Shown here: positions 57,001-60,000 of the stretch, one piece after another
Layout of the letters: each line of letters begins with the position of its first letter
How positions within the stretch are numbered: position 1 is the stretch's first letter
From: Escherichia coli O127:H6 str. E2348/69
GTDB taxonomy: Bacteria > Pseudomonadota > Gammaproteobacteria > Enterobacterales > Enterobacteriaceae
Reading direction: 5' to 3' (one strand)
Assembly (NCBI RefSeq): GCF_000026545.1
Contig: NC_011601.1
DNA length: 64,000 nucleotides
Program-made: the position numbers

Positions 57001-60000
57001 CTTGCCATGCTCCAGTCCTTTTCTTCTGGGCCGACTTTCCGGGAGGTGCTTAAACGAAAAACCCCGCCCGGTTTGCGCCGGCGGGGTTTTGGAATCGTGT
57101 GTTGTTCCAGTCCCTACGGCGCATTGCCGACGACCACCACCACACGCACGACGACCACTGCGGCAGATGGCGCAGTTGGTAGTAGTTTTGCGTTGAACAT
57201 GGAAGTAGTCATTAGGGACCTTGTTGGTTTTGTGTTTAACAATATTTATACAAGCACAGCTTTACAGGGGAGACAATGGAAAATTTTTCTTCCGGATAAA
57301 AATACGTGGCAGATCACATTTTGAACTGAAACTCAGGCAATAAAGCATCATCACCTGAAAGACGGTCAGATTGTTGACAGAGTGCGCCTTATTCATGTCG
57401 AATACAGCGTAAACACCTTACCCTACCAACCGCACCATCACTGTTTCCGGCAACATTTATTGCCGCTTTTGTTTACATATTCTGCCGCTAAACAATTCCC
57501 CATTCCTGGCGTATATCTGGCTAACATTCATCAATGTGATAGATTCCTCTCCCGCATTTATGGGAATGCGTAGTGACTTATTCTAATTATTTTTATAAAA
57601 GCATCCGTGATAATGAAAAGGCATAGAAACGTCAATTTGTTATTGATGTTGGTATTACTCGTGGCCGTCGGTCAGATGGCGCAAACCATTTATATTCCAG
57701 CTATTGCCGATATGGCGCGCGATCTCAATGTCCGTGAAGGGGCGGTGCAGAGCGTAATGGGCGCTTATCTGCTGACTTACGGTGTCTCACAGCTGTTTTA
57801 TGGCCCGATTTCCGACCGCGTGGGTCGCCGACCGGTGATCCTCGTCGGAATGTCCATTTTTATGCTGGCAACGCTGGTCGCGGTCACGACCTCCAGTTTG
57901 ACGGTATTGATTGCCGCCAGCGCGATGCAGGGGATGGGCACCGGCGTTGGCGGCGTAATGGCGCGTACTTTGCCGCGCGATTTATATGAACGGACACAGT
58001 TGCGCCATGCTAACAGCCTGTTAAACATGGGGATTCTTGTCAGTCCGTTGCTCGCACCGCTAATCGGCGGTCTGCTGGATACGATGTGGAACTGGCGTGC
58101 CTGTTATCTCTTTTTGTTGGTTCTTTGTGCCGGTGTGACTTTCAGTATGGCCCGCTGGATGCCGGAAACGCGTCCGGTCGACGCACCGCGCACGCGCCTG
58201 CTTACCAGTTATAAAACGCTTTTCGGTAACAGCGGTTTTAACTGTTATTTGCTGATGCTGATTGGCGGTCTGGCCGGAATTGCCGCCTTTGAAGCCTGCT
58301 CCGGCGTGCTGATGGGCGCGGTGTTAGGGCTGAGCAGTATGACGGTCAGTATTTTGTTTATTCTGCCGATTCCGGCGGCATTTTTTGGCGCATGGTTTGC
58401 CGGACGTCCCAATAAACGCTTCTCAACGTTGATGTGGCAGTCGGTTATCTGTTGCCTGCTGGCTGGCTTGCTGATGTGGATCCCCGACTGGTTTGGCGTG
58501 ATGAATGTCTGGACGCTGCTCATTCCCGCCGCGCTGTTCTTTTTCGGTGCCGGGATGCTGTTTCCACTGGCTACCAGCGGCGCGATGGAGCCGTTCCCCT
58601 TCCTGGCGGGCACCGCTGGCGCGCTGGTCGGCGGTCTGCAAAACATTGGTTCCGGCGTGCTGGCGTCGCTCTCTGCGATGTTGCCGCAAACCGGTCAGGG
58701 CAGCCTGGGGTTGTTGATGACCTTAATGGGATTGTTGATCGTGCTGTGCTGGCTACCGCTGGCGACGCGGATGTCGCATCAGGGGCAGCCTGTTTAAGCT
58801 CACGTCACCGCAGCATCGTCATCAGCTCCATGGGAGAACGATGCTGCTTTATCAGATCACGCATCACCCGCATATGCGGCGCGGAGTAAGAATAAAACGC
58901 CTGATAGCCCGCACAAAGCACGTTGTCTGGCGTCTCCTCCCGAGCGTGCGGGCACAGGCGATGCCAGTCGCACGCCTGGCAGCCACGACGCGGTTGCGGG
59001 TTTTCGCTGCCACACCATTTTTGTAGGGTGGCGTCAAAAAGCTCAATCGAAATACGACTGATATCTGCCCGTACCCAACACTCGAACAGGGCAATTAAAA
59101 ATTTCCCCCACAGCTCTGCTGTCACCGAAGCGGCCGTCAGATCGCCCCGGTCATCAAATTCAAGATGGGGAATAAGCTGTACTGAGCGGATGCCCAGCTG
59201 TTTGAAATTGTGATAAAAATCGGCAGGTTGCAGAGCATCCTTATACTCTACAACCAGTTTATGCCTGTCCTCTTCAGCATCAATGACCTGACTTCCTGTC
59301 ATGCGACTCTCTCAATAAATACGATAAGTTGATGTATATGCGTTACAGCAAACAGTATTGCGAGAGATAACACCGCGAGGGAGATCAAAAATTTGTCACG
59401 GACTACGTGAAATTGGGAAAAATCGCTATTCGTGACATCCATTAAATTGCGATTACGGGTGTAGTGCCAGAGGATCAGCGCCACAATGGCGAGGATGCCA
59501 ATCGAAATCCAGAATAACATGCCCGCCTGGTGCCAGTTGTGTTTGATAGCCAACGCCATCAACGCGCCGTAGCCCAGCATGGTACGAAACCACGCCAGTG
59601 ATGTGCGTTCCGGCTGCAGCCCTGGGTCGGCAATGCGTCTGGCTTTGCGGCTATCCGGCATACAACACCAGTCCCATGACGATCACTGCCACGACCATCA
59701 ATATTAAGCTAATGATTAATAAGCTGTTGGTATAGGGCAGGTCCTCTTTCAGGCGCATCGCTTTTTCATTGCGTAACCAGCGCAAGTAGCCATACATCGC
59801 TAACCCGCCGGAAAACAGACACAACAACAACGCCAGCAGTTCGCGGATGACGGGCGTGGCGAAATCTGGCGCAAGTTGATCAAGCCCAACCCCCGCCGCC
59901 AGAAATCCTAGTGCAGTACGGATCCACGCCAGAAAAGTACGCTCATTAGCCAGCGAGAAGCGGTAATCGGGCGCTTCTCCGAGGCGGGAAATTTTCATTG

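What the first reader, a model, noticed from the sequence alone, without database searches (positions are those of the whole stretch)
57213..57612. ivbL to emrD intergenic region is short and lacks a recognisable tisB/istR locus
From memory, K-12 carries the SOS-induced TisB toxin gene and the IstR antitoxin sRNAs between ivbL and emrD. Here the gap is about 400 bp, and I find neither a TisB-like ORF (MNLVDIAILILKLIVAALQLLDAVLKYLK) on either strand nor an obvious LexA box. If correct, this strain lacks a persistence-linked type I toxin-antitoxin module at its usual site.
Basis: inference. Interest (0 to 1): 0.4.

Follow-up and report, generated by a model that had tools for sequence, protein, structure and literature searches.

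The report
Known tisB/istR-null site of B2 E. coli
This strain, like phylogroup B2 E. coli generally, has lost the SOS-induced TisB toxin / IstR antitoxin module from its usual place between ivbL and emrD; this is already published, and the only new point is that its empty site has the same layout as that of Escherichia albertii.

Summary
The ivbL-emrD spacer is exactly 400 bp (57213-57612), against 933 bp in K-12. The 649 bp that hold istR-1/2, the LexA box, tisAB, its terminator and a REP in K-12 are replaced by about 100-160 bp. The window has no TisB ORF, no istR (Rfam) and no LexA box.

The window is 100% identical over the 1001 bases compared to EPEC E2348/69 (phylogroup B2). Among 5426 complete E. 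coli genomes, 1059 (19.5%) carry this short allele, 4359 carry tisAB/istR and 2 carry an intermediate form. These sum to the 5420 genomes that have the locus.

This is already known. Su et al. [quoted passage not shown]

Beyond that paper: TisB lies between ivbL and emrD in about 50 of 80 Enterobacteriaceae species, so B2 lost it. The B2 empty site is collinear with the E. albertii one (401 bp, one 1-nt indel, 131/157 identical in the central segment), inside E. coli-type flanks. That points to one old null allele rather than the independent losses the paper states. Two rare strains (HH97, HH45) suggest the filler is a decayed tisB relic, but direct similarity is not significant.

Interest is low.

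The parts
55320..57008 (-). ilvB (acetolactate synthase I large subunit), left anchor of the locus
   Evidence: 562-aa ORF. RefSeq annotation of the 100%-identical E2348/69 record.
57114..57212 (-). ivbL, ilvBN leader peptide (MTTSMFNAKLLPTAPSAAVVVVRVVVVVGNAP)
   Evidence: NCBIfam NF007579 IvbL equivalog, 80.1 bits against a cut-off of 60. Annotated in matching genomes.
57213..57289 (.). Left part of the spacer (ilvBN promoter side), E. coli-type sequence shared with K-12
   Evidence: Aligned almost without change to K-12. At the 3 sites here where E. albertii differs from K-12, the window follows K-12.
57290..57344 (.). 'Patch': alignable to K-12 but only 35/55 identical, against 49/55 identical to E. 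albertii. It contains the conserved GATCAC motif (57312-57317). From memory this is probably the CRP site of the ilvBN promoter; that was not tested. It ends in what aligns with the A-run (U-tail) at the 3' end of istR.
   Evidence: At sites where E. albertii differs from K-12, the window follows E. albertii at 17 of 21.
57345..57446 (.). Filler that replaces K-12's 649-bp istR / LexA box / tisAB / terminator / REP segment. Possible decayed relic: 57347-57369 resembles a tisB 5'UTR piece, and 57370-57413 resembles tisB codons 14-29 plus the stop (TAA at 57410-57412). 57414-57446 is of unknown origin.
   Evidence: No direct match to K-12 (local alignment score reached by 159 of 500 shuffles; nhmmer tisB profile gives no hit). 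It matches the HH97 allele at 88% over 81 bp (E 4e-19), and HH97 in turn matches the K-12 tisB 5'UTR (E 5e-8) and tisB 3' half (E 4e-7). It is 82/102 identical and collinear with E. albertii.
57447..57612 (.). Right part of the spacer (emrD promoter side), 100% identical to K-12. It includes a hairpin plus T-run at 57448-57465.
   Evidence: At all 14 sites where E. albertii differs from K-12, the window follows K-12.
57457..57531 (-). ysdE, 24-aa small protein gene (MNVSQIYARNGELFSGRICKQKRQ), retained
   Evidence: Annotated as ysdE in K-12 and in all matching RefSeq genomes. Translation.
57613..58797 (+). emrD (MFS multidrug efflux pump), right anchor of the locus
   Evidence: ORF. RefSeq annotation. 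394-aa relatives found in 80 species.

Best explanation
The interval is the tisB/istR-null allele of the ivbL-emrD spacer that is characteristic of E. coli phylogroup B2. The window matches EPEC E2348/69.

The TisB/IstR module was ancestrally at this site in Enterobacteriaceae and has been removed here. Gone are istR-1/2, both promoters with the shared LexA box, tisA, the tisB ribosome-binding site and codons 1-13, the terminator and the adjacent REP. What remains between the intact ilvBN and emrD/ysdE control regions is a non-coding segment of about 157 bp (57290-57446).

Functional consequence (inferred from established K-12 biology, not tested here): DNA damage cannot induce the membrane-depolarising TisB peptide in this strain, so the TisB-dependent route to SOS-induced dormancy and persistence is absent. 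IstR has neither a gene nor a target.

Origin (inferred from sequence comparison): the null allele is not a private B2 deletion. It has the same junctions and layout as the E. albertii spacer and sits in B2 as a short mosaic tract inside E. coli-type flanks. It is therefore one old null allele, shared either by ancient recombination between an E. albertii-related lineage and the B2 ancestor or by long-lived polymorphism.

My sub-confidences are: absence 0.99; loss rather than never-gained 0.9; common origin with the E. albertii allele 0.8; filler is a decayed tisB relic 0.55.
For: Absence. See (BLASTN, tblastn, Rfam istR with positive control, LexA-box scan, NCBIfam TisB with positive control).

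Lineage trait. The window is 100% identical over the 1001 bases compared to E2348/69. The short allele is in 1059 of 5426 complete genomes, including ATCC 11775, LF82, ATCC 25922, UTI89 and O25b:H4-ST131. tisAB/istR is in 4359. Published for B2 in PMC9040746.

Ancestral presence. A full-length TisB ORF lies between ivbL and emrD in about 50 of 80 species representatives: Citrobacter, Klebsiella oxytoca group, Raoultella, Kosakonia, Enterobacter, Leclercia, Atlantibacter, Trabulsiella and E. whittamii. In Salmonella diarizonae only a C-terminal TisB fragment is visible at the edge of the fetched stretch, upstream of emrD.

Common origin with E. albertii. Seven E. albertii loci have a 401-bp spacer collinear with the window's 400 bp. 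There is a single 1-nt indel, 88.5-89% identity overall, and 131/157 identity in the central segment that K-12 lacks.

Mosaic structure. At sites where E. albertii differs from K-12, the window follows K-12 at 13/13 in 57009-57289 and 14/14 in 57447-57612, but follows E. albertii at 17/21 in 57290-57344. In that patch the window is 35/55 identical to K-12, whereas K-12 against E. whittamii is 48/55.

Age. Identity at 4-fold degenerate sites in ilvB plus emrD is 71.9% for window against E. albertii and 90.1% for window against K-12. The relic is 80.4% identical to E. albertii. The sharing is therefore old, not recent.

No replacement gene. All mechanical ORFs over the segment are broken in E. 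albertii.
Against: The relic reading lacks direct support. The window filler against K-12 tisAB is not better than shuffles (159/500). A tisB-region profile built from 55 species does not hit the window or E. albertii. The reading rests on HH97 and HH45, two genomes from one study whose flanks are 100% identical to K-12 and to a B1 strain respectively. Their odd, G+C-rich allele was found nowhere else, so an assembly problem or an unusual recombinant cannot be excluded.

Su et al. describe the B2, E. albertii and clade V sites as three species-specific events. I could not see their figure.

The direction and date of the B2 / E. albertii sharing are not resolved.

Absence of tisB elsewhere in this particular genome is inferred from counts, not from scanning that genome. 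Su et al. report one B2 strain (FN-B26) with tisB at an unknown location.
Confidence: 0.8

Rival explanations
1. A B2-specific deletion, independent of the losses in E. albertii and clade V. This is the published reading.
For: Su et al. 2022 state that each of the three groups lost the locus by an independent event, with 'species-specific complex deletions/insertions'. The other tisB-less Escherichia representative retrieved (Escherichia sp. MOD1-EC7003) does carry a clearly different deletion, which keeps tisB codons 17-29, the terminator and the REP.
Against: The B2 and E. albertii spacers are collinear over 400/401 bp with one 1-nt indel. They share 131/157 bases in the segment that is absent from tisB+ alleles. 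The B2 patch follows E. albertii at 17 of 21 diagnostic sites, while both flanks follow E. coli. Two independent multi-step deletions would not produce the same junctions and the same filler.
Confidence: 0.07
2. The site was never occupied in the B2 / E. albertii lineage, and tisB/istR was inserted in the other lineages.
For: E. albertii is a basal Escherichia species and B2 is usually placed as an early-branching E. coli group (from memory; not tested here). Part of the B2 / E. albertii patch (AAAAATACGT) resembles Citrobacter, Kluyvera and Leclercia (AAAAATGCGT) more than other Escherichia.
Against: TisB occupies the same ivbL-emrD site in about 50 of 80 Enterobacteriaceae species well outside Escherichia, so presence is ancestral. 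The left junction aligns with the tail of the istR terminator. The HH97 and HH45 alleles share junctions with the B2 allele and still carry recognisable tisB 5'UTR sequence (nhmmer E 5e-5).
Confidence: 0.05
3. A highly divergent but functional toxin/antitoxin or other small gene occupies the shortened spacer.
For: Mechanical ORFs of 23-63 aa exist in the spacer. A weak hairpin plus T-run lies on the - strand at 57359-57332.
Against: None of the ORFs matches a TisB model or any NCBIfam family. Those overlapping the central segment are interrupted by a stop or frameshift in E. albertii. There is no LexA box. No Rfam family reaches its threshold. The promoter and terminator scan is at shuffle level.
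Confidence: 0.02

Closest known systems
tisAB-istR locus of E. coli K-12 (type I toxin-antitoxin; b4618, b4616)
   Same: Same chromosomal site, between ivbL and emrD. The ilvBN-side and emrD/ysdE-side flanks are shared at 88-100% identity.
   Different: Every functional part is missing here: the istR-1/2 RNA, the LexA box, tisA, the tisB ORF, the terminator and the neighbouring REP. 649 bp are replaced by about 100 bp.
tisB/istR-negative ilvB-emrD site of phylogroup B2, as described for CFT073 by Su et al. 2022 (PMC9040746)
   Same: This is that allele. The window is 100% identical over the 1001 bases compared to B2 strain E2348/69 and 99.4% to UTI89. The allele is found in 1059 complete genomes.
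   Different: None in substance. I add breakpoints, population counts and the comparison with E. albertii.
E. albertii ivbL-emrD spacer (tisB/istR-negative)
   Same: Same length (401 against 400 bp), same junctions, same filler (131/157 identical), one 1-nt indel.
   Different: The flanks are species-typical: at 27 of 27 diagnostic sites in the two flanks the window is E. coli-type. ysdE carries a premature stop in E. albertii.
Empty site of Escherichia sp. MOD1-EC7003 (L005). It may correspond to the clade V loss in Su et al.; I did not verify the clade.
   Same: Also lacks istR, the LexA box and the 5' half of tisB, at the same site.
   Different: A different, simpler deletion. tisB codons 17-29, the terminator and the REP are still recognisable (nhmmer E 1.5e-23), and the left flank is of the ordinary Escherichia type.

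Membership tests
TisB/IstR type I toxin-antitoxin system | ORF for the ~29-aa hydrophobic TisB peptide | tested here: not met
   tblastn best hit E 0.046, a chance hit elsewhere in the window. NCBIfam NF011340 and TIGR04459 hit the K-12 control and none of the spacer ORFs.
TisB/IstR type I toxin-antitoxin system | istR antisense sRNA (Rfam RF01400) | tested here: not met
   150 bits on the K-12 control. No hit in the window at gathering threshold or at E<=10 in 57000-57700.
TisB/IstR type I toxin-antitoxin system | LexA box (CTG-N10-CAG) between the divergent tisAB and istR-2 promoters | tested here: not met
   None in 57150-57650; the best 20-mer has 8 mismatches to the consensus. The K-12 box is found with 2 mismatches.
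TisB/IstR type I toxin-antitoxin system | Location between ivbL and emrD | tested here: met
   The site itself is present and syntenic. Only the module is missing.
Phylogroup B2-type tisB/istR-null allele | Spacer of about 400 bp carrying the B2-specific junction segment (57320-57470) | tested here: met
   The 151-bp junction query is found at >=80% coverage in 1058 genomes, including known B2 strains, with one place per genome. 100% identity to E2348/69.
tisB pseudogene relic | Statistically supported sequence homology of 57345-57446 to tisAB | tested here: inconclusive
   Direct alignment is not above shuffles and nhmmer gives no hit. Homology is supported only transitively through HH97 and HH45.

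The most novel reading that the evidence does not exclude
The B2 null allele is not a B2-specific deletion. It is an old tisB/istR-null allele with the same origin as that of E. albertii, sitting in B2 as a mosaic tract of about 160-230 bp inside E. coli-type flanks. It would have been acquired by ancient homologous recombination with an E. albertii-related lineage, or kept as a long-lived polymorphism. Escherichia would then have carried tisB+ and tisB-null alleles side by side for a time comparable to the age of its species. The published count of three independent losses would become two.
Probability: 0.7. Interest if true: 0.3.

Novelty: already known. Interest (0 to 1): 0.17.

Why it matters
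TisB is the textbook example of an SOS-induced toxin that produces fluoroquinolone-tolerant persisters in K-12. One fifth of complete E. coli genomes lack it altogether. That fifth includes the B2 pathogens UPEC, ST131, AIEC LF82 and EPEC E2348/69, as well as the species type strain. K-12 results on TisB-dependent persistence therefore cannot be carried over to these strains. This was already stated by Su et al. 2022.

The added point is that the B2 and E. albertii empty sites are one allele. It matters only for the evolutionary history of the locus: fewer independent losses, and exchange or long persistence of a null allele. It does not change the functional picture.

Tried and rejected
- Direct local alignment of the window filler (57331-57446) to the K-12 tisAB/istR segment: the score was reached by 159 of 500 shuffles, so not significant.
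- nhmmer with a tisB-region profile from 55 species: no hit in the window or in E. albertii. The relic cannot be shown directly.
- Two metagenome scans for HH97/HH45-type relic strings: 0 hits each. No further examples of the intermediate allele, and no donor identified.
- A megablast search for the HH97-type allele in complete E. coli genomes found only HH97 and HH45.
- The idea that HH97 is a simple consensus chimera of K-12-type and B2-type reads was considered and thought unlikely. Its flanks are 100% K-12-type and much of its central sequence matches neither parent. Raw reads were not available.
- Replacement small genes were considered and rejected.
- Permissive Rfam hits in 57000-57700 are all far below gathering scores and were treated as chance.
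- A literature search combining tisB/istR with UPEC strain names returned nothing useful.
- Searches were input errors.

Full report
**What is at the coordinates**

The window carries, in K-12 order, uhpB, uhpA, ilvN, ilvB (55320-57008, -), ivbL (57114-57212, -) and emrD (57613-58797, +). ivbL is confirmed by the NCBIfam equivalog (80.1 bits, cut-off 60).

In K-12 MG1655 the same spacer is 933 bp. It is annotated with istR-1 and istR-2 (- strand), tisB (+) and the small gene ysdE (-).

**Is tisB/istR missing?**

Yes. BLASTN of the K-12 spacer against the whole 64-kb window matches only its two ends:
- K-12 positions 3-118 match window 57215-57330 at 88%.
- K-12 positions 768-933 match window 57447-57612 at 100%.
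- Nothing matches positions 119-767, which hold istR, the LexA box, tisA, tisB and the terminator.

The other tests agree:
- TisB by tblastn gives only chance-level hits. The best (E 0.046, 12179-12232) lies antisense inside a SepL-type type III secretion gene.
- The two NCBIfam TisB models hit the K-12 peptide (69.6 and 59.9 bits) and none of the six mechanical ORFs of the spacer.
- Rfam istR (RF01400) scores 150 bits on K-12. It gives nothing in the window at gathering threshold, and nothing even at E<=10 within 57000-57700.
- K-12's LexA box TACTGTTTATTTATACAGTA has no counterpart. There is no CTG-N10-CAG in 57150-57650.

What is kept is the ilvBN-proximal part (57213-57289), the emrD-proximal part (57447-57612) and ysdE (57457-57531, -).

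**Whose allele is it?**

The 1001 bp around the spacer are 100% identical to EPEC E2348/69 and 99.3-99.6% identical to UTI89 and other human isolates. In the 5426 complete E. coli genomes:

| Query | Genomes matched |
|---|---|
| Locus as a whole (window 56900-57900) | 5420 |
| Short-allele junction (window 57320-57470) | 1059 (one place each) |
| K-12 istR-tisAB segment without its REP | 4359 |
| HH97-type third allele | 2 |

The short-allele genomes include the type strain ATCC 11775, LF82, ATCC 25922, APEC O2:K1 and O25b:H4-ST131. The three allele classes sum to 4359 + 1059 + 2 = 5420, exactly the number of genomes that have the locus. In tisB-less genomes the only other matches to the K-12 segment are 37-bp REP hits. 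The classes therefore look mutually exclusive, and a second copy of tisB elsewhere in short-allele genomes is at most rare. I could not scan the E2348/69 chromosome itself.

**Already known**

Su et al. 2022 (mBio 13:e00385-22, PMC9040746) examined 72 Escherichia strains. [quoted passage not shown] CFT073 is drawn as the negative example. They conclude that each group 'lost it by an independent event'.

**Loss or never gained?**

I fetched the emrD neighbourhood from 80 species representatives. A full-length TisB ORF lies between ivbL and emrD in about 50 of them: Citrobacter, the Klebsiella oxytoca group, Raoultella, Kosakonia, Enterobacter, Leclercia, Atlantibacter, Trabulsiella and E. whittamii. 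In Salmonella diarizonae only a C-terminal TisB fragment is visible at the edge of the fetched stretch, upstream of emrD. Presence at this site is therefore ancestral, and B2 lost it.

Short, TisB-less spacers also occur in E. albertii, Escherichia sp. MOD1-EC7003, Pseudocitrobacter and a few others.

**Anatomy of the B2 allele**

Between the two conserved ends lie 157 bp (57290-57446), in two parts.

- The first 55 bp ('patch', 57290-57344) align with K-12 but are only 35/55 identical. For comparison, K-12 against E. whittamii, a different species, is 48/55. The patch contains a GATCAC motif conserved in all taxa. From memory this is probably the CRP site of the ilvBN promoter; I did not test it. 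The patch ends where K-12 has the A-run of the istR terminator.
- The remaining 102 bp (57345-57446) have no significant direct similarity to K-12. The local score is reached by 159 of 500 shuffles. A tisB-region profile from 55 species finds nothing.

**Possible relic**

Two genomes from one Canadian study, HH97 and HH45, carry a longer null allele of 489 and 514 bp.
- Against K-12, the HH97 allele matches a piece of the tisB 5'UTR (E 5e-8; nhmmer 4.5e-5) and tisB codons 14-29 plus the stop (E 4e-7).
- Against the window filler, it matches at 88% over 81 bp (E 4e-19).

Read through this bridge, window 57347-57369 corresponds to the 5'UTR piece, and 57370-57413 to the 3' half of tisB. The TAA at 57410-57412 falls in the place of the stop codon.

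This is plausible but not proven. The bridge alleles have flanks 100% identical to K-12 (HH97) and to a B1 strain (HH45). Their central sequence is unusually G+C-rich. They were found nowhere else. I put the relic reading at about 0.55.

**The unexpected part**

The E. albertii type-strain spacer, and six further E. albertii loci, are 401 bp long and collinear with the window's 400 bp. There is a single 1-nt indel, 88.5-89% identity overall, and 131/157 identity in the central segment that tisB+ alleles lack.

At sites where E. albertii and K-12 differ, the window follows:
- K-12 at 13 of 13 sites in 57009-57289;
- E. albertii at 17 of 21 sites in the patch, 57290-57344;
- K-12 at 14 of 14 sites in 57447-57612.

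The B2 allele is thus a short E. albertii-type tract inside E. coli-type flanks. The left breakpoint lies between 57258 and 57290, and the right one between 57447 and 57487.

The sharing is old:
- The relic is 80.4% identical between B2 and E. albertii.
- Identity at 4-fold degenerate sites of ilvB plus emrD is 71.9% for the same pair, and 90.1% for B2 against K-12.
- The central segment is somewhat less diverged than neutral sites (binomial P = 6e-4 for 131/157; P = 0.036 for the relic alone).

This fits either an ancient exchange by homologous recombination or a long-lived polymorphism. Direction and date are not resolved.

Escherichia sp. MOD1-EC7003 has a clearly different deletion. It keeps tisB codons 17-29, the terminator and the REP (nhmmer E 1.5e-23).

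On this evidence B2 and E. albertii share one loss event rather than two. I could not see Fig. S5E of Su et al., so I cannot say how their alignment led to the other conclusion.

**No replacement function**

The mechanical ORFs that overlap the central segment are broken by a stop or frameshift in E. albertii. They match no family. Promoter-like and terminator-like sites are at shuffle level.

**How it works**

It does not: the module is gone. From established K-12 biology (my knowledge plus PMC9040746), TisB is a LexA-controlled 29-aa inner-membrane peptide that dissipates the proton-motive force. IstR-1 blocks its translation. A strain with this allele cannot use that route to SOS-induced dormancy. 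This consequence is inferred and was not tested here.

**Verdict**

The finding is already known. The only addition is modest: the B2 and E. albertii empty sites appear to be one old allele, and the filler may be a decayed tisB relic. Interest is low.

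Noticed in passing
L003 (HH97) 1259-1747; L004 (HH45) 538-1051: Two complete E. coli genomes from one Ontario study carry a third, intermediate tisB-null allele of 489 and 514 bp. It has recognisable tisB 5'UTR and 3' fragments and an odd G+C-rich stretch. Its flanks are 100% identical to K-12 (HH97) and to a B1 strain (HH45). No other example was found in 5426 genomes or in two metagenome scans.
   Followed up: partly
L091 (strain 1000C-3) 1252-2472; L092 (strain GMF054) 601-874: About 220 tisB+ genomes cover less than 80% of the K-12 istR-tisAB segment (4359 matched, 4137 at >=80%). One example has an ISKox3-family (ISL3-like) transposase between istR and tisB. Another has an internal deletion upstream of an intact tisB. 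Both could uncouple the toxin from its antitoxin or promoter.
   Followed up: partly
L002 (O103 RM8385) about 1541-1713: B1-type and related strains carry about 139 bp more than K-12 between the tisB terminator and ysdE. This is presumably an extra REP/BIME unit; it was not examined.
   Followed up: no
window 6278-6368 and 11708-12763: tRNA-Sec (selC; Rfam 83.8 bits) is followed by a SepL/TyeA-family type III secretion gatekeeper gene. This fits the LEE pathogenicity island at selC, as expected for EPEC E2348/69.
   Followed up: partly
L007 and L085-L090 (E. albertii), the counterpart of window 57457-57531: The small gene ysdE has a premature stop at codon 12 in all E. albertii loci examined (MNVSQICVRNG*). 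It is intact in E. coli.
   Followed up: no
window 57196 (ivbL codon 6) and 57622-57624 (emrD codon 4): IvbL has Phe6 where K-12 has Leu. EmrD has His4 where K-12 has Gln. Both are small B2-type substitutions next to the spacer.
   Followed up: no
L022, L026, L029, L035 (Kluyvera), L061 (Yokenella), L059: These taxa have a long stretch (1.4-1.5 kb from the ilvB start to the emrD start) but no detectable TisB ORF. Something else may occupy the site.
   Followed up: no
L013 (Salmonella enterica subsp. diarizonae) 2-43: Here the end of tisB lies about 2.46 kb upstream of emrD, so extra DNA sits between tisB and emrD in this Salmonella representative.
   Followed up: no
window 57290-57344: Part of the B2 / E. 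albertii patch (AAAAATACGT) resembles Citrobacter, Kluyvera and Leclercia (AAAAATGCGT). All other Escherichia examined share GGAAAATTGAGGGG-like sequence. The ilvBN upstream activator region thus exists in two deeply diverged forms within E. coli.
   Followed up: partly
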